Positions 10,915-58,806 of a stretch of 64,000 nt of DNA are shown here, piece by piece. The first letter of the stretch is position 1, and each line of letters begins with the position of its first letter. The notes beneath the pieces were generated by a model. It was not told the origin of the DNA, did not search any database, and was given only the letters and a program-made list of their open reading frames with translations. The DNA is from a bacterium (GTDB lineage Bacteria > Patescibacteriota > Dojkabacteria > JAKAPS01 > JAJZLI01), in assembly GCA_027371855.1 (NCBI GenBank), contig DAHXLB010000011.1, forward strand, positions 7,459 to 71,458, written 5' to 3'. The translations under genes and the position numbers were made by a program.

Positions 10915-11829
10915 TTATATCTTATTTATTATATACATTCCCCCGGTCATAAGGATATAGTATAGATTTGAATAATAAAAAGAGGGTGTCTTTTTATGAG
11001 GGAATTCATTTCTTAATTTTTCTATATCGTCATCAGATATTTTAAAATCCAGAGATTTTAAGTTTTCTTTTAAATGTTCTATATTTCTTGTTTTTGAGAT
11101 TGTTACTACATTATCTTGAGATACTAACCAATTTATTGCTATTTGTGAATATGTCTTATTATATTTTTTAACCATGGTATCTAGTATAGGTGTCTGATTT
11201 TTATTATATATCCCCTTATGAACTGGTGTATATGCAACAATCATTATGTCATTCTCCTTACAATATTTAAGAAGTCCATTGTCTTCTGGAAACCTAGATG
11301 TTAAATTATACAGAACTTGGTTTACAACAATCTTATTTTTGGTTTCACTTTGAGCTTTTTCTAATTTTTTTACGCTAAAATTGCTTACACCTATATTTCT
11401 TATAAGTCCATCACTTTTTAATTTATCCATAGCTCTCATCGTTTCCTTTATACTGATAAGAGGGTTGTAACTGTGAAGTAAATATAAATCCAAATATCCA
11501 CTATTCATTCTTTTAATACTTTCTGTTGCAGATTTTATAAGATTATTATATGAAAAATTTTCTGGTTTTACTTTAGAAGTTATAAATAATTTTTCTCTAT
11601 CATACCCCTTTATACTCTCACCAATTAATTCTTCTGCATGACCACGTGCATATAATTCGGCAGTATCTATATGTGTAACCCCCATATCTATTGCAGTTTT
11701 CAGTGCGATAATATCAGCTTTATCATACCCATGATTTATTTTTCCTGCATCTCCTCCTACATACCACGTACCTATGCCATATAAAGGTAGTTTAAATCCA
11801 TTTTTTAATGCTTTTGAAGGTATATCCAC
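10915..11829 (-). CDS. aldo/keto reductase
   Basis: Contains LYGIGTW, THIDTAELY, LDLYLLHSYNP and NIGVSNF, the typical AKR motifs. Confidence 0.8.
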   Translation of the reverse strand: MDIPSKALKNGFKLPLYGIGTWYVGGDAGKINHGYDKADIIALKTAIDMGVTHIDTAELYARGHAEELIGESIKGYDREKLFITSKVKPENFSYNNLIKSATESIKRMNSGYLDLYLLHSYNPLISIKETMRAMDKLKSDGLIRNIGVSNFSVKKLEKAQSETKNKIVVNQVLYNLTSRFPEDNGLLKYCKENDIMIVAYTPVHKGIYNKNQTPILDTMVKKYNKTYSQIAINWLVSQDNVVTISKTRNIEHLKENLKSLDFKISDDDIEKLRNEFPHKKTPSFYYSNLYYILMTGGMYIINKI

Positions 11830-41463: not shown

Positions 41464-42693
41464 TTAATATTTAATTTTATCTATAGGCAATATATTAACT
41501 TTATCTTCATTTCTTTTTTTTATCTCCGCTCCCCCAGCCTCAATACTTCTTTTAGTAATTAGAATTCTTAGAGGGATTCCTATTAGATCAGCATCTTGCA
41601 GTTTCTCTCCAATAGTAAGATTTTCTCTATCATCAAATAAAACACTCTTCCCATCTTTCTCTAGTTTGTCTGTTATCTTTGTTACTGTATCAATATTTTC
41701 ATTGTTAACATTTATGATATGAACATCATATGGGGCTACTGAAGTTGGCCAGATAATACCATTATCATCATTGAATTTCTCTACAATTATTCCCATTAAC
41801 CTACTTATTCCTATGCCATAACATCCCATATAGACCTCTTTATCCTGATTATTTTCATCTCTAAATAAGTAACCAAATGGTTTAGAATATTTTGTATCAA
41901 TTTGAAAAATGTTTGCTACTTCAGAAGCTTTTTCTGATTTAATAGAGGTCTTTAGATCTTTTGGTACAATTTCTTCATTATAGTAAATATTGTTTTTGGA
42001 ATCATAATAAATACTATCTTCTCCAGTACTACATCTAACTTGAAACTCTGTGGAGTAATTTTTTGTAAAATCACCTCCTGACGCTAAAACTTCTACAGTA
42101 TCTTTTTCAAGTTCTAATTTTTTAAAAATGTTCCAATAGTATTCTTTCATACCATCAAAATATTTCTGCAAATCTTCTTTATTCTGGTGAAAACTATATA
42201 AATCTTTCATAATAAATTCTCTTCCACGTAAGAGTCCAGATTTAGGTCTCTTTTCATTTCTAAACTTTGTTTGTATTTGGTATATAGCGAATGGAAGGTC
42301 TTTATAACTGGAATTATATTTTTTAGCTAGAGGTGTAACTATTTCTTCATGAGAAGGATTTAGAATATATTCATTGTTATTTTCTTCTTTTGATAATTTG
42401 TTTCCTCCCAAAGCTTTAAAAATGACATCAAAGCTATCTAATCTCCCAGTTATTTTCCATATATCCATAGGAGATATAGATGGCATTAAAATTTCATTGG
42501 AAATCTTATCCATCTCCTCTCTTATTATATTTTCTATCTTTGATATTACTCTAAGTCCTAGAGGTAAATATGTATAGACGCCAGCCATTTCCTGATTTAT
42601 AAAACCAGCTTTCTGAAGGAGAGTTGCATTTATGGAATCAAATTCTTTTGCTTCTTTATTAGTTTTTCCAAATAATTTTGAATATCTTTGCAT
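41464..42693 (-). CDS. proS: prolyl-tRNA synthetase, short bacterial type without the INS editing domain
   Basis: Contains LLQKAGFINQEMAGVYTYLPLGLRV (motif 1 region), QIQTKFRNEKRPKSGLLRGREFIMKD (motif 2), CYGIGISRL (motif 3) and a C-terminal HGTP anticodon-binding domain. The protein is only 409 aa. Confidence 0.9.
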   Translation of the reverse strand: MQRYSKLFGKTNKEAKEFDSINATLLQKAGFINQEMAGVYTYLPLGLRVISKIENIIREEMDKISNEILMPSISPMDIWKITGRLDSFDVIFKALGGNKLSKEENNNEYILNPSHEEIVTPLAKKYNSSYKDLPFAIYQIQTKFRNEKRPKSGLLRGREFIMKDLYSFHQNKEDLQKYFDGMKEYYWNIFKKLELEKDTVEVLASGGDFTKNYSTEFQVRCSTGEDSIYYDSKNNIYYNEEIVPKDLKTSIKSEKASEVANIFQIDTKYSKPFGYLFRDENNQDKEVYMGCYGIGISRLMGIIVEKFNDDNGIIWPTSVAPYDVHIINVNNENIDTVTKITDKLEKDGKSVLFDDRENLTIGEKLQDADLIGIPLRILITKRSIEAGGAEIKKRNEDKVNILPIDKIKY

Positions 42694-44250: not shown

Positions 44251-44330
44251 ATAAACTCATCGGTAATATTATGATTATGTAACTTGTACACTATATTTGA
44301 CATTTTTATCTAATATATATATTAGATTAT

Positions 44331-44599
44331 ATGAAAACAGAAACTGTTAATTTTAAAACAGACGTCGTAACTAAATTAAAGGCACAAAAAGTTGCCAGAA
44401 AGTTGGGTATTCAGCAATTTACTTAATGCTTATCTGTAAGAGCTCTCTAGTACTGGAAGTGTACATTTTATAACTACCGACAATGACTGAAAAAATGGAA
44501 GAAATTGTTGCACAAGCAGAGATGGAGATAGCTTCTGGGAAAGTGAGTGGACCATTTGGAACACTTGAAAAAATGTTTGAGCATCTTGATTATTTGTAA
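44331..44599 (+). pseudogene. fragmented RelB/DinJ-like antitoxin
   Basis: The N-fragment MKTETVNFKTDVVTKLKAQKVARKLGIQQFT* (44331-44426) has the RHH-type pattern of DinJ/RelB. It continues only after frame changes. The C-fragment MTEKMEEIVAQAEMEIASGKVSGPFGTLEKMFEHLDYL* lies at 44483-44599. Confidence 0.55.
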
Positions 44600-44856
44600 T
44601 TGATATTCAAACCACAATAAACTTTGATAAACAATACTCAAGACTAAATATAAAAATCAAAAATCAGTTTTAAAATAAAATCAGAATATTTGAGATGAAT
44701 CCTTTTGACATAACTTTAAGGAACCACGCGCTTAAAGGGAAATATCTGGGATATAGGAGCATTGATATCAGTGGAGATGTAAGAGCACTATATACAGTCA
44801 AAGGTAACGTTATAATCCTATTTGCATTTATTGGTACACATAGCCAACTCTATTAA
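44599..44856 (+). pseudogene. YafQ/RelE-family toxin remnant with an in-frame stop and no start
   Basis: The frame reads IDIQTTINFDKQYSRLNIKIKNQF*NKIRIFEMNPFDITLRNHALKGKYLGYRSIDISGDVRALYTVKGNVIILFAFIGTHSQLY*. The TAA is at 44671-44673. The C-terminal H.L.G...G.RS..I..D.R.IY......I.L...G.HS.LY pattern is typical of YafQ/RelE-type mRNA interferases. Confidence 0.6.
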
Positions 44857-44985
44857 AATAATAGGTATTTAATTTATGTGAATTTTTCGTAATTATGTTC
44901 ACAAATATATTATAACAAGGATCTATATCCAATTCACACGCTACTTTACAATTTTAATATCATTTTCATTGGATAAAACTATGAG

Positions 44986-45014
44986 TTGACAAAACTCACC
45001 AGTTCTACTAGAAT
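44986..45014 (+). promoter_or_regulatory. near-consensus sigma70 promoter upstream of the 82-aa ORF
   Basis: TTGACA (44986-44991), a 17-nt spacer, then TAGAAT (45009-45014). It lies 27 nt upstream of the ATG at 45042. Confidence 0.5.
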
Positions 45015-45041
45015 CAGTTGATTAGTTTATTATATTAAAAT

Positions 45042-45290
45042 ATGTCACCAGAAATATTCAAAGACTATAACGCAGCACAAGAGATGGGATTTCAAAACCC
45101 AGATGATTCAATTGTAAAAATTCTCCCTGAAAGCCCATTAGAAGAATTAAAGTTAAGATTGAAAGAAAAATGGGGAATATTGATCACCAGTGAAGAAACT
45201 TTACCTTATGCATCAAGAATTACTAGTGAAGCTGATATGGAGATGGTAATTTCTGAAATATTAGATGAAACAGTAAAAAATCTTTACTAA
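45042..45290 (+). CDS. hypothetical acidic 82-aa protein
   Basis: A complete ORF with a good upstream promoter-like element. I recognised no family. Confidence 0.4.
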   Translation: MSPEIFKDYNAAQEMGFQNPDDSIVKILPESPLEELKLRLKEKWGILITSEETLPYASRITSEADMEMVISEILDETVKNLY

Positions 45291-45303
45291 TAAAAATACA
45301 ATT

Positions 45304-45934: not shown

Positions 45935-47284
45935 TTATAAATTACTTACTAATTGTTGGTACAGGGCAATATATTTTTCAGCAGATCTTCCCCAAGAGAA
46001 GTCTTCATTCATTGCTGTTTGTATCATTTCATCCCATTTAGGAGTATTAAACATAGATAAAGCTTCTTTTAATGTATTGACAAGACTTAAAGGTGAATAA
46101 TCCTCAAATGTAAATCCCGATACTAAACTCTCAACTGAATCTTTTAGTCCCCCTGTTGACCTTACAATAGGTAATGTTCCATATTTCATTGCAATCATTT
46201 GTGTTAGTCCAGAGGGTTCATATCTTGAAGGTATGATTAATGCGTCTGCCCCTGCATATATTTTTTCTGCTAGTGTTATGTCAAAAGTAATATCGGCAAA
46301 TAAAGATGGATTTTTTGTTCCTAAAATTTGCAATTGATTTTCAAAATCTTTGGCTCCGGTCCCAAGTATAATAAAATTAACATTTTTACTCTCTAAAGTC
46401 TCCATAGCTTTTATCAAGATATCAATACCTTTTTGATAATCCAATCTTGATATAAATGCAAAGAGAGGAGTGTCTATATTGAATTTTAAATGTAATTCCT
46501 CAATCAATCTTTTTTTATTTTCTAACTTCCCCATTTTATAATTGGATATATTATATTTAGAATATATCTTATCATCTTTATCTGGGTCATAAATAGAATA
46601 ATCTATACCATTTAATATTCCATATAAACTATTTTTTCTAAGTTCCATAAAATCCTCTATCTCTCCACCATATTCTTTGGTTAATATCTCTCTAGCATAT
46701 GTAGGTGATACAGTTGATACAATATTGGCATTTAATACACCTTGTAATAGAAGGTTGATTTGATTATCTGATTTATCTATCTCTATGGTTGAGTGATATT
46801 TTTGAAGTTTTAAAGCATCTAATATTTCTAATGAGTATCTACCCTGATAGGCTGGACCTAGATTATGAATAGTTAACATTGTTTTTACATTGTTCAATCC
46901 TACATCTTTTAGAAGTATAGGTATTAATGATGTATGGTAGTCATTAATATGAACTATATCTACTCTCCCGAATTTTTGATCCTTTATATCTTGAACTACT
47001 TTTTGTGAAAATATTGCAAACCTTATAGGATCATCTGGATATCCATAAACATTATCTCTTGATGAGAAATATTCTGGGATATCTATATAATTAATTTTAA
47101 CATCTGATCCAGGGATAGTTGTGGGTATTGGTGTAGGAATGATTTTATATTTTGGTATTACAACCTGTATATTAATAAAATCTAATAAACACTTTGGTAG
47201 AGCACCTGCAACATCTGCAAGACCACCAACTTTTATGATTGGTGCAAGTTCTGATGATACAAATAAAATATTAATCCTATCCAT
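45935..47284 (-). CDS. glgA: glycogen/starch synthase (GT5), copy 1
   Basis: The N-terminus ILFVSSELAPIIKVGGLADVAGALPK is the K-x-GGL motif. It also has HINDYHT, and a C-terminal PSRYEPSGLTQMIAMKYGTLPIVRSTGGLKDSV. Confidence 0.9.
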   Translation of the reverse strand: MDRINILFVSSELAPIIKVGGLADVAGALPKCLLDFINIQVVIPKYKIIPTPIPTTIPGSDVKINYIDIPEYFSSRDNVYGYPDDPIRFAIFSQKVVQDIKDQKFGRVDIVHINDYHTSLIPILLKDVGLNNVKTMLTIHNLGPAYQGRYSLEILDALKLQKYHSTIEIDKSDNQINLLLQGVLNANIVSTVSPTYAREILTKEYGGEIEDFMELRKNSLYGILNGIDYSIYDPDKDDKIYSKYNISNYKMGKLENKKRLIEELHLKFNIDTPLFAFISRLDYQKGIDILIKAMETLESKNVNFIILGTGAKDFENQLQILGTKNPSLFADITFDITLAEKIYAGADALIIPSRYEPSGLTQMIAMKYGTLPIVRSTGGLKDSVESLVSGFTFEDYSPLSLVNTLKEALSMFNTPKWDEMIQTAMNEDFSWGRSAEKYIALYQQLVSNL

Positions 47285-55675: not shown

Positions 55676-56626
55676 TTAGATCCGTGGATCAAGATCCTCT
55701 ATGAAATGCATAGCATCAATTGCGGCTATACAGCCAATACCAGCAGATGATATTGCTTGTTTATATTTAGGATCTGATACATCTCCTGCAGCAAAAACAC
55801 CTTCAATATTTGTTTTTGTAAAATCATGGACTTTTATATATCCATTTGTATCTATGTCTAAAAATTCTTTAAAAATTTCTGTATTTGGGGTATGTCCTAT
55901 TGCTATAAATACACCTTGTACTCTAAGATCAGATTCAGTATTTATTTTATTATTCAAGATCTTTACTCCTTCTACAACACTCTCGCCATAAATATCCTTA
56001 AGTTCAGAGTTAAAAAGTATCTCTATCTTCTCATCTTTAAAAACTCTATCTTGCATTACTTTTGATGCTCTAAATTCATCTCTTCTGTGTACAAGGTATA
56101 TTTTTCTTACAAATTTTGTTAAAAATAAAGCCTCTTCCATGGAACTATCTCCTCCTCCAACTACAACTATATCTTTATCTTTAAAAAATGGTCCGTCACA
56201 AGTAGCACACCCAGAGACTCCCTTGCCCATTAATCTTGTCTCTCCATCAAGGCCTAACCATCTTACAGATGCTCCTGTAGAAATGATTATAGTTTTTGTT
56301 TTAAATTCTTTATCTTCAGTCCAAATAGTAAATGGTTTCTTTGAAAAATCAACTTTTATAACTACGCCCTCTTCAAATCTAACTCCCATATTTTTTGCTT
56401 GTTTTTGCATATTCAACATTAATTCTGGTCCCAATATACCATCCTCAAATCCTGGATAATTTTCAACTAATGATGTTATTGTAAGCTGACCTCCTGGGGT
56501 ACTCCCAGATATCAAAATAGGGTTTAAATCAGATCTAGCTGCATATATGGAGGCAGTTAGTCCTGCAGGCCCAGATCCTAAAATAATAACGTTTTCAATA
56601 TTCATAATTAAGTGTTTTTCTGACAT
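55676..56626 (-). CDS. trxB: thioredoxin-disulfide reductase
   Basis: Contains the FAD motif ILGSGPAGLTASIYAAR, the redox-active CATCDG, the NADPH motif VVGGGDSSMEEA, and GVFAAGDV. Confidence 0.95.
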   Translation of the reverse strand: MSEKHLIMNIENVIILGSGPAGLTASIYAARSDLNPILISGSTPGGQLTITSLVENYPGFEDGILGPELMLNMQKQAKNMGVRFEEGVVIKVDFSKKPFTIWTEDKEFKTKTIIISTGASVRWLGLDGETRLMGKGVSGCATCDGPFFKDKDIVVVGGGDSSMEEALFLTKFVRKIYLVHRRDEFRASKVMQDRVFKDEKIEILFNSELKDIYGESVVEGVKILNNKINTESDLRVQGVFIAIGHTPNTEIFKEFLDIDTNGYIKVHDFTKTNIEGVFAAGDVSDPKYKQAISSAGIGCIAAIDAMHFIEDLDPRI

Positions 56627-56689
56627 ATTTATTCTACCATAATAATCATGTATATCAAAAAAAGTAGTGCTCTTGGACTAATATGTTAG

Positions 56690-56900
56690 TTAATGATACA
56701 TTCATATTTTAATAGTATCTTAATGATAGTGAAAGATATAAAAACTAACAACGCGTTGAAGATAATTATATTGATTAACTAAAAACTAATTTTATCTATA
56801 CAAGACTATGTATATAAAAATGAAGGATATGAAATTACCGAGAATTACAGATATATTAGAAGCAAGAGGGAGCCGGTTTGGGGCTCCCTTCCATTTTCTT
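56690..56900 (+). ncRNA. candidate sRNA/leader module, copy 1 (promoter-like box, ~170 nt, terminator-like hairpin)
   Basis: It starts with TTAATG-17-TAGTAT (56690-56718). Copy 1 shares a block with copy 2 (57029-57228): the first ~45 nt are near-identical, and a conserved core AACTAAAAACTAATTTTATCTATACAA follows. It ends in the hairpin AGGGAGCC/GGCTCCCT (56867-56889) followed by TCCATTTTCTT. Confidence 0.4.
56867..56900 (+). terminator. intrinsic-terminator-like hairpin of copy 1
   Basis: An 8-bp GC-rich stem (56867-56874 with 56882-56889) and a 7-nt loop, followed by a T-rich tract. Confidence 0.45.
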
Positions 56901-57003
56901 ATGATTTCCCCAAAGGTATGGCAGTAAAAACAGAGATATCGTAGTAGAGTCACAAAACAATAAAAAAGTGGTGGAATGGCGTACTAATTGGGGAAGTCAT
57001 AAG
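56898..57003 (+). other. 106-nt element closed by a 16-bp long-range stem
   Basis: CTTATGATTTCCCCAA (56898-56913) pairs with TTGGGGAAGTCATAAG (56988-57003). That is 15 Watson-Crick pairs plus one G-T, readable as G-U on the + strand. A second helix pairs GTATGGC (56916-56922) with GGCGTAC (56978-56984), and the interior is A-rich. Confidence 0.4.
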
Positions 57004-57028
57004 AAACCATGAACTACCAATGCAGTAA

Positions 57029-57228
57029 TTAATGATACATTCATATTTTAATAGTATCTTAATAATAATGAAAGATATAAAAACTAGCTAGTCGTTATCA
57101 AGTAACTAAAAACTAATTTTATCTATACAACTATTATGTATATAAAAATAGAAGATAGAAAATTACGGCGAGAGACAGAGATATATAAAAAGATTTAGGG
57201 AGTCGAATCAGGGCTCTCTTTTATTTCC
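57029..57228 (+). ncRNA. candidate sRNA/leader module, copy 2, directly upstream of the GT39-like gene
   Basis: It has the same architecture as copy 1. The hairpin AGGGAGTC/GGCTCTCT (57197-57219) has the same 7-nt loop length and is followed by TTTTATTT. It ends 55 nt before the ATG at 57283. Confidence 0.4.
57197..57228 (+). terminator. intrinsic-terminator-like hairpin of copy 2
   Basis: An 8-bp stem with two G-T (G-U) pairs, followed by a T-run (TTTTATTT). Confidence 0.45.
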
Positions 57229-57282
57229 TGTGATATAATAATAACATTCAGTAATTGTTATCATTTATAAAATTAGTTAGTT

Positions 57283-58806
57283 ATGAATAGATACATTAAA
57301 TTTTTTCCCTTTTTGTTAACATTTTTATTAAGACTCCCCGCATTTTATGAGCCCCATTGGTATGAAGATACAGGTATGTATTCAGCAATAGGTATGGCTC
57401 TAAATCATGGTGCAGTTTTATATAGCACTGTATTTGATAATAAAACCCCTTTTATATATTACCTATATGCTTTATATGAACGTATTCCGCTATCTTTAAT
57501 TTTTGTTTACCAATCCGTTTCTTTGATCCTTGCTTTGCTTACTCAGTATTTTATTTTTAAAATAGCTCAATTAAAGTTTGGTAATAAAGTAGCAGTTATA
57601 TCATCCCTTCTTTTTGCTTTACTTATAGGGAGTGTTTTTCTAGAAGGAACATTGGCTAATGCTGAGAATTATTATATGTTCTTTTCTATATTATCTATAT
57701 ATATAATTCTGAAGAATGTTCCTGATATAAGTTTTTTAAAATTATATATTGCAGGACTTGTCATAGGTCTTGGATTAATGTTTAAGGTGTCAGTAATATT
57801 TGATGCATTCTTTATTATTGTATATTTCTTTTTTATATTTGATTTTAAAAAATATGTTAAATCATCATTTTTCTATACCTTGGGTTTGTTCACTCCATTG
57901 GTAATTTTTCTAGTTTATGAATTTTTCACAAACAATCTACCGAACACAATATATGCAATATTTTTGTATAATTTAGGATATGTCGCAAAGGCAAAACCTT
58001 TATTTGGTTTATCAATAGTTGATTTTCAGACTATACTTCTTTTCCTGATCCTATTCATATTTTTTGTATTTTATAAAAAAAGATGGATTAAAAGATCTAG
58101 ATCCAAAGATGTAACTCTCTTTATATATTTATGGGTTATTATTGATTTATACAGTGTATATTTATCAGGAAGACCTTATTTTCATTATCTTCTTCAAATA
58201 GCATTACCTCTTTGTATTTTACTAGGATACTATATATATAGAATATATAAAGAAAGGTGGTATAAAAAAATACTTATTGTATTTTTAGTTGGTATATCTA
58301 TATATCTTGGAGAACTATATTTCTTTAGAGGAGAATTATCATGGCAAATTTTCCAGCAGTTACAATTTAAATATGACTATTATCCTAATTCTTATGCATA
58401 TATGATAGGTAAAGAAACAAGTTCTCAATATAATTCTATTTTTATCTATAATACTAATGTTATATATGAGAAAACTGAGCAGAACGCAAATATAGTATAC
58501 CAGATTGCAAATAATCTGGATTCACTAAATGTTAAGGGTAAGAGAATATTTATAATGGGTAATTTTCCTTGGGATTACTATATGACAAAATCTATTCCCA
58601 GTGAGAAGTATGTAGTTGATTTTCAAATAATAGGGGAAAAAAGACAGAATACTGTTCTCTCTGAGCTAAATAAGAATAAGCCATATCTTATACTCTATTA
58701 TAACGATAGCTATGGATTTAATAAACTGACAGCCTTTATAAATAAATACTACAAACTAGCAAAAACCTCCAATGGTGCATATTTTTATATAATTAAAAGT
58801 AAATAG
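57283..58806 (+). CDS. GT39/ArnT-like (GT-C fold) polytopic glycosyltransferase
   Basis: A 507-aa protein with ~12 helices in the N-terminal two thirds and a soluble C-terminal domain. The first-loop acidic motif is EPHWYEDTGMY. The layout is typical of PMT/ArnT-family enzymes in reduced genomes. The family call is tentative. Confidence 0.5.
   Translation: MNRYIKFFPFLLTFLLRLPAFYEPHWYEDTGMYSAIGMALNHGAVLYSTVFDNKTPFIYYLYALYERIPLSLIFVYQSVSLILALLTQYFIFKIAQLKFGNKVAVISSLLFALLIGSVFLEGTLANAENYYMFFSILSIYIILKNVPDISFLKLYIAGLVIGLGLMFKVSVIFDAFFIIVYFFFIFDFKKYVKSSFFYTLGLFTPLVIFLVYEFFTNNLPNTIYAIFLYNLGYVAKAKPLFGLSIVDFQTILLFLILFIFFVFYKKRWIKRSRSKDVTLFIYLWVIIDLYSVYLSGRPYFHYLLQIALPLCILLGYYIYRIYKERWYKKILIVFLVGISIYLGELYFFRGELSWQIFQQLQFKYDYYPNSYAYMIGKETSSQYNSIFIYNTNVIYEKTEQNANIVYQIANNLDSLNVKGKRIFIMGNFPWDYYMTKSIPSEKYVVDFQIIGEKRQNTVLSELNKNKPYLILYYNDSYGFNKLTAFINKYYKLAKTSNGAYFYIIKSK

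What the first reader, a model, noticed from the sequence alone, without database searches (positions are those of the whole stretch)
56690..57228. Two diverged copies of a ~200-nt module with strand-specific structure conservation in a 656-nt intergenic region
The trxB / GT39-like divergent spacer (56627-57282) is about ten times longer than typical spacers in this window. It holds two collinear copies, 56690-56900 and 57029-57228. Their first ~45 nt are near-identical (TTAATGATACATTCATATTTTAATAGTATCTTAAT), which includes a TTAATG-17-TAGTAT promoter-like box. They share a conserved core, AACTAAAAACTAATTTTATCTATACAA.

Both copies end in an 8-bp stem, a 7-nt loop and a T-rich tail. The two stem differences between copies (C to T on the 3' arm, C to T on the 5' arm) turn G-C pairs into G-T pairs. 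Those are G-U wobbles if the + strand is transcribed, but A-C mismatches on the other strand. This is the signature expected of a transcribed, structured RNA.

Short ORFs inside the copies are not conserved in frame: MYIKMKDMKLPR... versus MYIKIEDRKLRR..., with an indel.

Copy 2 ends 55 nt before the GT39-like start, so it could be a cis-acting attenuator. Copy 1 would then be an orphan paralog or a free-standing sRNA.
Basis: seen in the sequence. Interest (0 to 1): 0.6.

Follow-up and report, generated by a model that had tools for sequence, protein, structure and literature searches.

The report
Duplicated mini-gene with built-in terminator
The two repeats are copies of a small, unannotated unit found in one group of Patescibacteria: a promoter-like block and a ~30-codon reading frame that runs through a terminator hairpin, probably a ribosome-sensitive switch ahead of a cell-envelope glycosyltransferase gene, though nothing here shows it is transcribed or translated.

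Summary
Two collinear ~200-nt copies (81% identical) lie in the 656-nt trxB/PMT_2 spacer and nowhere else in the window. There is no Rfam match.

Nine related Patescibacteria lineages carry the same module in the same divergent trxB/PMT_2 spacer, usually once. Three features are conserved:
- a GC-rich 8-bp hairpin plus U-rich tail. All 80 pair cells pair, three pairs show compensatory changes, and every wobble is G·U on the + strand.
- a 29-39-codon ORF (57 in L013) that is open in the same frame through the hairpin in all 10 intact copies. Its stop lies after the U-tract.
- in close relatives, a 118-nt upstream block that is 89-97.5% identical, against 84-89% for the flanking genes.

Synonymous sites in the ORF are strongly conserved (dS 0-0.12 versus 0.4-0.85 in the flanks). 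The constraint is therefore mainly on nucleotides, not on the peptide.

Copy 1 is the conserved ortholog. Copy 2, next to PMT_2, is the decaying paralog, with a +2 frameshift and a weaker hairpin.

Best reading (about 0.4): a pyrL-like leader ORF whose translation modulates an embedded terminator. Rivals are a stand-alone sRNA or a small protein. Interest is moderate.

The parts
56631..56658 (-). Promoter-like site for trxB (TTGATA-16-TAGAAT). The -10 box lies 4 nt before the trxB ATG. It is outside the repeated module and is listed as context.
   Evidence: 10 of 12 matches, TG present. (tagaataaatATG). The motif is also present in the L006 spacer.
56690..56807 (+). Copy 1, 5' non-coding block. 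It contains TTAATG-17-TAGTAT, the inverted repeat GATAC-N15-GTATC, the palindrome CAACGCGTTG, the core AACTAAAAACTAATTTTATCTATACAA, and a -10-like TATACA (56797-56802) 5 nt before the ORF's ATG.
   Evidence: 97.5%, 94% and 89% identical to L048, L006 and L047. The flanking coding sequences are 84-89% identical and the trxB-proximal spacer 67-76%. The GATAC-N15-GTATC repeat occurs only at the two copies.
56808..56927 (+). Copy 1 small ORF, 39 codons: MYIKMKDMKLPRITDILEARGSRFGAPFHFLMISPKVWQ*. It runs through the hairpin. The rare codon CCG sits at 56838-56840. The tail after codon 31 reads into the inserted segment.
   Evidence: Orthologous ORFs of 29-34 codons (57 in L013) are open in the same frame in L006, L047, L048, L009a, L009b, L013, L010, L051 and L055.
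56866..56900 (+). Copy 1 terminator-like hairpin (GAGGGAGCC / GGTTTGG / GGCTCCCTT, -17.8 kcal/mol) followed by the tail CCATTTTCTT.
56892..57011 (.). Segment between the copies. It can form a long hairpin with a stem of about 22 bp. The 5' arm reuses the T-tail of copy 1. No homolog was found.
   Evidence: I4: 19-nt arms, 95% complementary. (-37.2 kcal/mol, z = -3.46). (no other match in 640 kb held).
57029..57135 (+). Copy 2, 5' block. The first 35 nt and the 27-nt core are identical to copy 1. There is a 12-nt deletion, and the GC palindrome is replaced by CTAGCTAG.
   Evidence: 84-90% identical to the other modules.
57136..57198 (+). Copy 2 truncated ORF, 20 codons: MYIKIEDRKLRRETEIYKKI*. 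It has +2 nt relative to the orthologs, and its TAG stop overlaps the foot of the hairpin. The rare codon CGG sits at 57166-57168.
   Evidence: This part is only 63-73% identical to the other copies.
57197..57229 (+). Copy 2 weakened hairpin (AGGGAGTC / GAATCAG / GGCTCTCT, two G·U pairs, -10.6 kcal/mol) followed by the tail TTTATTTCCT.
57229..57282 (+). Stretch between the copy 2 terminator and the PMT_2 start. It holds -10-like boxes: the extended -10 TGTGATATAAT at 57229-57239 and TATAAA at 57266-57271. There is no Shine-Dalgarno sequence.
   Evidence: Equivalent boxes occur in L009 (TGTGATATTAT, 6 nt before the ATG), L013, and L006, L047 and L048 (TATAAT, 9 nt before the ATG).
57283..58806 (+). 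PMT_2 / ArnT-like GT-C glycosyltransferase gene, the gene downstream of the module (context).
   Evidence: PF13231, E = 1e-11..

Best explanation
The module is a small, conserved transcription unit on the + strand. It has a promoter/operator-like block and then a ~30-codon ORF. In this Shine-Dalgarno-less genome the ORF probably starts at or very near the 5' end of the RNA. The last third of the ORF is a GC-rich hairpin plus U-tract, that is, an intrinsic terminator inside the ORF, and the stop codon lies beyond the U-tract.

Proposed mechanism (inferred, not shown). By default RNA polymerase terminates at the hairpin and makes a short RNA. When a ribosome translating the ORF follows the polymerase closely, it covers the 5' arm, the hairpin cannot form, and transcription runs on into the PMT_2 glycosyltransferase gene. 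This read-through adds to whatever PMT_2's own promoter-like boxes give. It is the logic of the E. coli pyrL/pyrBI attenuator. A conserved very rare codon (CGG or CCG, ORF codon 11 in the window clade and L051, codons 7-10 in the others), 24-33 nt before the hairpin, is a candidate pause point that would set the ribosome-polymerase distance.

In the window the module was duplicated. Copy 1 keeps the ancestral form. Copy 2, next to PMT_2, has lost the through-hairpin frame and has a weakened hairpin.

Shown: the conservation, the hairpin covariation, the open frame and the constraint on synonymous sites.
Inferred: transcription, termination, translation and their coupling.
For: 1. Hairpin. 80 of 80 cells pair, 3 pairs carry compensatory changes, and wobbles occur only on the + strand. 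Slid-register controls give 39-75% pairing. A U-rich tail is present in all 10 copies. These are the only intergenic terminator-like hairpins found in 64 kb.

2. Open frame. The ORF is open from an ATG through the hairpin in the same frame in all 10 intact copies. Per-sequence chance of this is 0.05-0.14, and most other frames hold 2-7 stops. The ATG-to-hairpin distance varies only by multiples of 3 (51, 57, 63, 69 nt).

3. Stop position. The stop codon starts 13-22 nt after the hairpin core in 8 of 10 intact copies. Terminated RNAs would therefore lack a stop. That fits a regulatory ORF better than a protein gene.

4. Where compensatory stem changes occur, the amino acids change (S to D, A to V in L010). 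This shows the RNA pairing is the primary constraint.

5. Synonymous sites. dS in the sORF is 0-0.12, against 0.37-0.85 in trxB and PMT_2.

6. Position. The module is always upstream of and co-oriented with PMT_2, in 9 of 9 lineages with a divergent trxB/PMT_2 pair. It was found nowhere else in 640 kb.

7. Rare codons. CGG is used 4 times in 18,922 window codons and CCG 15 times. One of the two sits at a conserved ORF position in 10 of 11 copies (all but L010).

8. Translation start. The genome lacks Shine-Dalgarno sequences, and -10 boxes sit 4-9 nt before many starts, including the sORF ATG.

9. Published precedent. Ribosomes close to a terminator repress it, and the pyrBI attenuator lies inside the 135-bp leader ORF (PMC4824070, PMC5021804).
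Against: - There are no expression data. The transcription start, termination and translation are all unverified.
- -10-like boxes lie between the terminator and PMT_2 in every lineage. PMT_2 may be transcribed independently, which would make the module a separate gene.
- No antiterminator or U-rich pause tract was seen upstream of the hairpin.
- In the window, the PMT_2-proximal copy is the one that decayed. The distal copy 1 stayed under selection. A purely cis-acting leader does not predict this, although weakening of copy 2's terminator is compatible with it.
- The highly conserved 118-nt 5' block is not explained by this model.
- Only about 5 independent lineages are available, all from a few sample series.
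Confidence: 0.4

Rival explanations
1. The module is a stand-alone small RNA gene, about 90-175 nt depending on the start site, ended by its own intrinsic terminator. It would act in trans or as an antisense-type regulator, for example by pairing of the conserved core with the PMT_2 start region. The ORF would be incidental to an RNA that begins near an AUG in a leaderless-translating organism.
For: - The constraint is at nucleotide level, with no codon periodicity: variable columns by codon position are 4, 4 and 8, and dS is depressed.
- The 5' block is more conserved than the neighbouring genes.
- After duplication, the copy not adjacent to PMT_2 is the conserved one.
- PMT_2 has its own -10-like boxes.
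- The core AACTAAAAACTAATTTTAT is complementary to ATAAAATTAGTTAGTT just before the PMT_2 ATG (I1 and I2). The two core substitutions in L006 and L047 would keep G·U pairing.
Against: - An incidental ORF would not stay open through the hairpin in the same frame in all 10 intact copies.
- The core-to-start-region complementarity ranks only 2nd to 5th among 51 gene starts in this AT-rich window. It is absent from the compact modules of L009, L013 and L055.
- No structure other than the terminator is supported.
- No second genomic target could be examined.
Confidence: 0.25
2. The module is a bona fide small-protein gene. It would encode a basic, non-hydrophobic peptide of about 30 residues (consensus ..K-L-R-R....R-G-S-H/R-x-G-A-P-F-H-F) that works with TrxB or the glycosyltransferase. 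Its terminator would overlap the 3' end of the coding sequence because the genome is compact.
For: - The ORF is open and of similar length in most lineages (29-34 codons in eight of the ten intact copies; 39 in window copy 1, 57 in L013).
- P and F are invariant, and S and A nearly so.
- Measured against the flanking genes' dS, nonsynonymous sites are also constrained: dN is 0.04-0.16 against a neutral rate of about 0.4-0.85.
Against: - The invariant residues are exactly those encoded by the hairpin arms and the start of the U-tract. In L010, compensatory stem changes alter the residues (S to D, A to V).
- dN in the sORF is about twice that of the flanking proteins, and dN/dS within the ORF is 0.9-2.9.
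- The stop codon lies beyond the expected termination point, so terminated RNAs would be non-stop.
- There is no Pfam or PDB match and no called homolog in 5.8 billion proteins.
- The C-terminal tail is variable (HFV*, NLL*, LIY*, LFYVNY*, and longer in copy 1 and L013).
Confidence: 0.15
3. The module is mainly a DNA-level regulatory region of the divergent trxB/PMT_2 promoter pair, made of transcription-factor sites, with a terminator that merely insulates the PMT_2 promoter. The two copies would be a by-product of insertion or recombination in this spacer, and the ORF would have no role.
For: - The most conserved blocks are AT-rich sequences with repeat symmetry: GATAC-N15-GTATC, TTAATGATA twice, and GC palindromes.
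- Module duplication flanking inserted DNA arose independently in L009, where about 2.4 kb including an adh_short gene lies between the copies. This suggests both neighbouring genes need the region.
Against: - This does not explain the strand-specific G·U pattern, the compensatory stem changes or the conserved open frame.
- The motifs do not recur elsewhere in the window: TTAATGATA occurs 7 times against 5.4 expected.
Confidence: 0.1

Closest known systems
pyrL leader / pyrBI attenuator of Escherichia coli (Roland, Liu and Turnbough 1988, as cited in PMC5021804; also discussed in PMC4824070)
   Same: - A short leader ORF contains an intrinsic terminator.
- The stop codon lies downstream of the terminator.
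- No antiterminator structure is required. A closely following ribosome suppresses hairpin formation.
- The unit lies directly upstream of and co-oriented with the regulated gene.
   Different: - There is no sequence relation to pyrL.
- No U-rich, UTP-sensitive pause tract lies upstream of the hairpin.
- The downstream gene is a GT-C glycosyltransferase, not a pyrimidine gene.
- The organism lacks Shine-Dalgarno sequences, and the ORF is probably leaderless.
- The downstream gene seems to have its own promoter boxes.
- The signal sensed is unknown.
Classical leader-peptide attenuators (trpL, hisL, pheL and others)
   Same: A short upstream ORF with conspicuous control-type codons (here a conserved rare CGG or CCG), followed by an intrinsic terminator before the structural gene.
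   Different: Those systems use alternative antiterminator and terminator hairpins, and their terminator lies more than 20 nt downstream of the leader ORF (PMC4824070). Here the terminator is inside the ORF and no alternative pairing was found.
Dual-function small RNAs that also encode a peptide (SgrS/SgrT, RNAIII/hld, SR1/SR1P; cited from general knowledge)
   Same: A short transcript with its own promoter and intrinsic terminator, carrying both nucleotide-level constraint and a small ORF.
   Different: In those RNAs the ORF ends before the terminator, and a base-pairing seed with defined targets is known. Here the ORF spans the terminator and no target is established.
Ribosome arrest peptides (SecM, TnaC, SpeFL; cited from general knowledge)
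   Same: A short upstream ORF with an aromatic- and Pro-containing C-terminal motif (G-A-P-F-H-F) next to a regulatory RNA element.
   Different: - The conserved residues are explained by the hairpin nucleotides.
- A profile search of PDB chains at E up to 10 listed only two chains, an autolysin and ribosomal protein uS11, and no arrest peptide.
- The rest of the peptide evolves fast.

Membership tests
Any Rfam 15 RNA family | A covariance-model score at or above the family's gathering threshold | tested here: not met
   No match at gathering threshold in the whole window. The best sub-threshold hits in 56000-58000 are chance level: SNORD70 at 24.6 bits (E = 0.86) and RsaOG at 19.5 bits (E = 5.5).
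Intrinsic (Rho-independent) terminator | A GC-rich stem-loop immediately followed by a U-rich tract on the transcribed strand | tested here: met
   The scan finds both copies on the + strand. Stems of 8-10 bp have energies of -10.6 to -17.8 kcal/mol, with 6-8 T in the next 10 nt, in all 10 copies. Pairing is kept by covariation.
Intrinsic (Rho-independent) terminator | Transcripts actually end there | not testable with these tools
   No transcriptome or 3'-end data are available. The proximal U-tract is interrupted (UUCCAUUUU) in the window clade.
pyrL-type attenuator (terminator inside a leader ORF) | A leader ORF that reads through the terminator hairpin and stops downstream of it | tested here: met
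   This holds in all 10 intact copies. The stop starts 13-22 nt after the hairpin core in 8 copies, and further downstream in window copy 1 and L013. Window copy 2 instead stops at the hairpin foot.
pyrL-type attenuator (terminator inside a leader ORF) | The downstream gene depends on read-through, with no independent promoter between terminator and gene | tested here: inconclusive
   -10-like boxes, including the extended -10 TGTGATATAAT/TGTGATATTAT, lie between the terminator and the PMT_2 ATG in all lineages. Such boxes are common in 29% GC DNA, where 10 promoter-like sites are found against 6.3 expected.
pyrL-type attenuator (terminator inside a leader ORF) | An NTP-sensitive pause tract (a U-run) upstream of the attenuator that couples ribosome and polymerase | tested here: not met
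   The ORF upstream of the hairpin is A-rich, with no T-run of 4 or more between the ATG and the hairpin. A conserved rare CGG or CCG codon is the only candidate pause feature.
Antiterminator-type leader-peptide attenuator (trpL-like) | An alternative hairpin that sequesters the 5' arm of the terminator | tested here: not met
   No upstream segment is complementary to AGAGGGAGCC. The minimum-energy and consensus folds show only the terminator as a stable element.
Protein-coding small gene | An open reading frame conserved across lineages | tested here: met
   zero stops in frame 0 in all 10 intact copies, with length differences in multiples of 3.
Protein-coding small gene | Purifying selection on the amino-acid sequence (an excess of synonymous change, third-position periodicity) | tested here: not met
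   Within the ORF, dN/dS is 0.9-2.9, with dS of 0-0.12 against 0.37-0.85 in the flanks. Variable columns by codon position are 4, 4 and 8. Only 31 codons are available, so the estimate is noisy.
Protein-coding small gene | Homology to a known protein family | tested here: not met
   No Pfam family, no meaningful PDB hit, and no word-sharing protein in the 5.8 billion-protein collection. No gene caller annotated the ORF in any of the contigs.
Mobile element / MITE | Multiple dispersed copies or terminal inverted repeats with target duplications | tested here: not met
   The module occurs only in the trxB/PMT_2 spacer across 640 kb of held sequence. The 125-nt insert has no other copy. There is no match in the phage collection or viral contigs.

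The most novel reading that the evidence does not exclude
A previously undescribed attenuator class adapted to organisms without Shine-Dalgarno sequences. In this reading, a leaderless micro-ORF with a conserved ultra-rare codon (CGG or CCG) reads through an embedded intrinsic terminator. Ribosome-polymerase spacing, and so translational capacity or supply of one rare tRNA, would set expression of a cell-envelope GT-C glycosyltransferase in Patescibacteria. The unusually conserved 118-nt upstream block would add a second, still unknown layer, either a protein-binding site or an RNA function.
Probability: 0.25. Interest if true: 0.65.

Novelty: new variant of a known kind. Interest (0 to 1): 0.45.

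Why it matters
To my knowledge (no literature search addressed this), few regulatory elements have been described in Patescibacteria (CPR), and automated annotation misses this one completely. No gene caller, Rfam family or Pfam family recognises it.

If the ORF-in-terminator design works as proposed, it would be a simple way for a reduced-genome, Shine-Dalgarno-less bacterium to tie envelope glycosylation to translational status. It would also give a tractable reporter for transcription-translation coupling and leaderless translation in this uncultivated group.

The case also shows that a repeat dismissed as non-coding from within-genome comparison can prove to carry a conserved reading frame once orthologs are examined.

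Tried and rejected
- **Rfam.** The region at E up to 10 and the whole window at gathering thresholds gave nothing real. No tRNA or tmRNA was found.

- **Scan of genome contigs.** The hairpin pattern GGAGYC-N6-RGGGCTCYYTTYNATTT found 23 hits, all generic terminators in unrelated bacteria and none in Patescibacteria.

- **Scan of metagenome contigs.** A PMT_2 alignment as query returned only relatives at 19-40% identity.

- **Viral contigs and phage records.** No relevant match.

- **Peptide searches.** Pfam and PDB gave no hit. The alignment query was too short. The 45-residue open-frame query found no word-sharing protein.

- **Long-range RNA structure or anti-start pairing.** The consensus fold pairs AACTAAC-type motifs with the PMT_2 start region, but the covariation term is only -0.38. 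In a control against 51 gene starts, PMT_2 ranks only 2nd to 5th. This is kept as an idea, not a finding.

- **A second leaderless ORF at 56723 (MIVKDIKTNNALKIIILIN).** Rejected, because its frame and length are not conserved in copy 2 or L006 (read).

- **A regulon-type operator.** The GATAC-N15-GTATC and TTAATGATA motifs do not recur elsewhere in the window beyond chance.

- **A MITE or mobile-element origin of the 125-nt insert.** No other copy exists.

- **A decayed protein gene.** Rejected, because all 9 lineages carry the same short ORF-plus-hairpin arrangement rather than a longer gene.
Full report
**1.

The window is a 29% GC Patescibacteria (CPR) sequence. The closest named PMT_2 homolog is annotated as a MAG of 'Patescibacteria group bacterium'.

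A thioredoxin-reductase-like gene (55676-56626, - strand) and a PMT_2/ArnT-like GT-C glycosyltransferase gene (57283-58806, + strand) are divergent and 656 nt apart.

Two collinear copies lie in the spacer:
- They span 56687-56900 and 57026-57228 and are 81-83% identical.
- Each copy ends in a terminator-like hairpin with a 7-nt loop and a T-rich tail.
- The two stem substitutions in copy 2 are G·U-compatible only on the + strand.

The same spacer is present in two other assemblies (L001, L003). Two further assemblies break inside copy 2. This is what a real repeat would cause.

**2. Related genomes.**

Look-ups with PMT_2 and TrxB homologs recovered eight further lineages. In these, PMT_2 is 46-88% identical for the five lineages found through PMT_2, and TrxB is 63-89% identical for the six whose TrxB is listed (L006's and L013's are not listed).

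All of them have trxB and PMT_2 divergent and adjacent, except L009, where inserted DNA lies between them, and all carry the module in that spacer. The lineages are L006, L047, L048, L009, L013, L010, L051 and L055.

More distant PMT_2 homologs with a different upstream neighbour (a tRNA-synthetase-type gene where known) lack the module (L014-L018).

A profile search of all 640 kb held found the module only at these spacers.

Most lineages have one copy. The single copy of L006, L047 and L048 resembles window copy 1 in its body and copy 2 in its 3' flank, so the window's duplication is derived. L009 has an independent, recent duplication with about 2.4 kb of foreign DNA between the copies.

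**3. What is conserved.**

(a) The hairpin.
- In an alignment of 10 copies, all 80 pair cells form standard pairs.
- Three pairs show compensatory double changes, for example GGAGCC/GGCTCC versus GGGACC/GGTCCC.
- All five wobble cells are G·U or U·G on the + strand.
- Slid-register controls give only 39-75% pairing.
- Energies are -10.6 to -17.8 kcal/mol, with 6-8 T in the next 10 nt.
- In a scan of the whole window, these are the only intergenic terminator-like hairpins. The other six hits are inside coding sequences.

(b) An open reading frame.
- From an ATG 48-66 nt upstream, a frame of 29-39 codons (57 in L013, where it runs into PMT_2) is open through the hairpin.
- The phase relative to the hairpin is the same in all 10 intact copies. 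The Ser or Asp codon always falls on the same stem positions.
- Most other frames carry 2-7 stops. The per-sequence chance of an open frame is 0.05-0.14.
- In 8 of 10 copies the stop codon starts 13-22 nt after the hairpin core, beyond the usual RNA release point.

(c) The 5' block.
- Among close relatives, the 118-nt block at 56690-56807 is 97.5%, 94% and 89% identical.
- For comparison, trxB and PMT_2 coding DNA is 84-89% identical and the trxB-proximal spacer 67-76%.

**4. Coding or RNA?**

Between the window and its close relatives, the flanking genes have dS of 0.37-0.85 and dN of 0.06-0.095. The sORF has dS of 0-0.12 and dN of 0.04-0.16, with no clear third-position excess.

Synonymous sites are therefore several-fold more conserved than neutral, and the peptide changes about twice as fast as the neighbouring proteins.

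The invariant residues (S, A, P, F) are exactly those encoded by the stem arms and the first U-tract codon. Where the stem changed by compensation (L010), the residues changed too (S to D, A to V).

The peptide has no Pfam, PDB or database homolog, and no gene caller annotated it anywhere (and the gene tables).

The constraint is thus mostly on nucleotides. The maintained frame nevertheless indicates that passage of a ribosome matters.

**5. Context of gene expression.**

None of 51 gene starts in the window has a Shine-Dalgarno sequence. Many have a -10-like box 4-9 nt before the start codon, for example trxB with TAGAAT-aaat-ATG. This suggests widespread leaderless or near-leaderless mRNAs (inference).

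The sORF ATG has such a box 4-7 nt upstream in every lineage. PMT_2 also has -10-like boxes between the terminator and its ATG.

One of the genome's rarest codons sits at a conserved position (ORF codon 7-11), 24-33 nt before the hairpin, in 10 of 11 copies (all but L010). CGG is used 4 times in 18,922 codons and CCG 15 times.

**6. Mechanism proposed.**

The combination is this: a terminator inside a short ORF, a stop codon downstream of it, no antiterminator, and co-orientation with the next gene. That is the architecture of the pyrL/pyrBI attenuator, where a ribosome close behind RNA polymerase prevents terminator folding (PMC5021804, PMC4824070).

PMC4824070 also shows two relevant points. 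Terminators within about the first 100 nt of an ORF are usually not suppressed, so termination would be the default here. A stop codon a few nt before a terminator strongly represses it, which is relevant to the geometry of copy 2.

I therefore rate a ribosome-sensitive attenuator ahead of PMT_2 as the best explanation (about 0.4). Its weaknesses are:
- There are no expression data.
- PMT_2 has possible promoters of its own.
- There is no U-rich pause tract.
- The 5' block is unexplained.

Rivals are a stand-alone or dual-function sRNA (0.25), a small protein (0.15), and a mainly DNA-level regulatory region with an insulating terminator (0.1).

**7. The two copies.**

Copy 1 groups with the orthologs at 90-93% identity. 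Copy 2 is 77-81% identical to every other copy. It is near-neutral in the ORF part (63-73%) and the hairpin (71%). It also carries a +2 frameshift, a TAG at the hairpin foot, a 12-nt deletion, and a hairpin of -10.6 versus -17.8 kcal/mol.

This is compatible with the attenuator model, because copy 2's terminator must weaken if read-through from copy 1 is to reach PMT_2. It is equally compatible with an autonomous gene product.

**8. Verdict.**

The feature is real, conserved, unannotated and specific to one clade. It is best described as a micro-ORF with an embedded intrinsic terminator.

The architecture belongs to a known kind (leader ORF and terminator attenuators). The family, the host group, the Shine-Dalgarno-less setting and the highly conserved upstream block are new.

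Interest is moderate (0.45). It would rise if transcript mapping and reporter tests confirm ribosome-dependent read-through.

Noticed in passing
window 56892-57011: The 125-nt segment between the two copies can form a stem of about 22 bp (-37.2 kcal/mol, z = -3.46). Its 5' arm reuses the T-tail of copy 1's terminator, and its 3' arm is an inverted copy of that tail. It has no homolog in any held sequence, and its origin and role are unexplained.
   Followed up: partly
window, all 51 long ORF starts (e.g. trxB 56626-56640; 10915-11829; 41464-42693; 45935-47284): No gene start has a Shine-Dalgarno sequence. Many have a TATAAT-like box 4-9 nt upstream of the start codon, which suggests that leaderless or near-leaderless mRNAs are the rule in this genome.
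   Followed up: partly
window 44251-45303 (ORF 44695-44856 +): A second long spacer of about 1 kb follows the lysyl-tRNA-synthetase-like gene. It holds a 53-aa ORF that matches only the C-terminal half of the YafQ toxin profile (positions 42-86 of 88, E = 1e-7). This is probably a truncated toxin-antitoxin remnant.
   Followed up: partly
L009 3300-3450 and 5840-6000: The module was duplicated independently in a relative whose PMT_2 is 47% identical. The two copies are nearly identical, both have intact ORFs, and they flank about 2.4 kb of inserted DNA that includes an opposite-strand adh_short gene. In both lineages, insertions into this spacer were accompanied by duplication of the module.
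   Followed up: partly
L002 1-145; L004 1-131 (equivalent to window about 57138-57282): Two independent assemblies of the same organism end inside copy 2. The repeat breaks short-read assemblies at this locus.
   Followed up: yes
window 57186-57219: In copy 2 the sequence U AAA AAG (57186-57192) lies 4 nt before the hairpin. A -1 shift there would restore the ancestral frame through the hairpin (…KKDLGSRIRALFYFL*). This resembles a dnaX-type frameshift site but may be coincidence.
   Followed up: no
window 56777-56795 and 57104-57122 versus 57267-57282: The invariant core AACTAAAAACTAATTTTAT is complementary to ATAAAATTAGTTAGTT immediately before the PMT_2 ATG (16 bp with a 3-nt bulge). The core substitutions in L006 and L047 would keep G·U pairing. 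As a control, PMT_2 ranks only 2nd to 5th among 51 gene starts.
   Followed up: partly
window 56838-56840, 56874-56876, 57166-57171: The short ORFs hold the genome's rarest codons: CCG and CGG in copy 1, and CGG CGA in copy 2. CGG occurs only 4 times in 18,922 codons of the window.
   Followed up: partly
window, whole (scan): Terminator-like GC-rich hairpins with a T-tail are very rare in this window. There are 8 hits on both strands: the two module hairpins on the + strand, a - strand hit at copy 1's own hairpin (56867-56889), and five inside coding sequences. Canonical intrinsic terminators do not seem to be the general way genes end here.
   Followed up: partly
L005-L008 and L046-L047, between trxB and the TauE-like gene: Close relatives carry a GT2 glycosyltransferase plus GH8 glycosyl hydrolase pair (about 4.3 kb) downstream of trxB. 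The window and L048 lack this pair.
   Followed up: no
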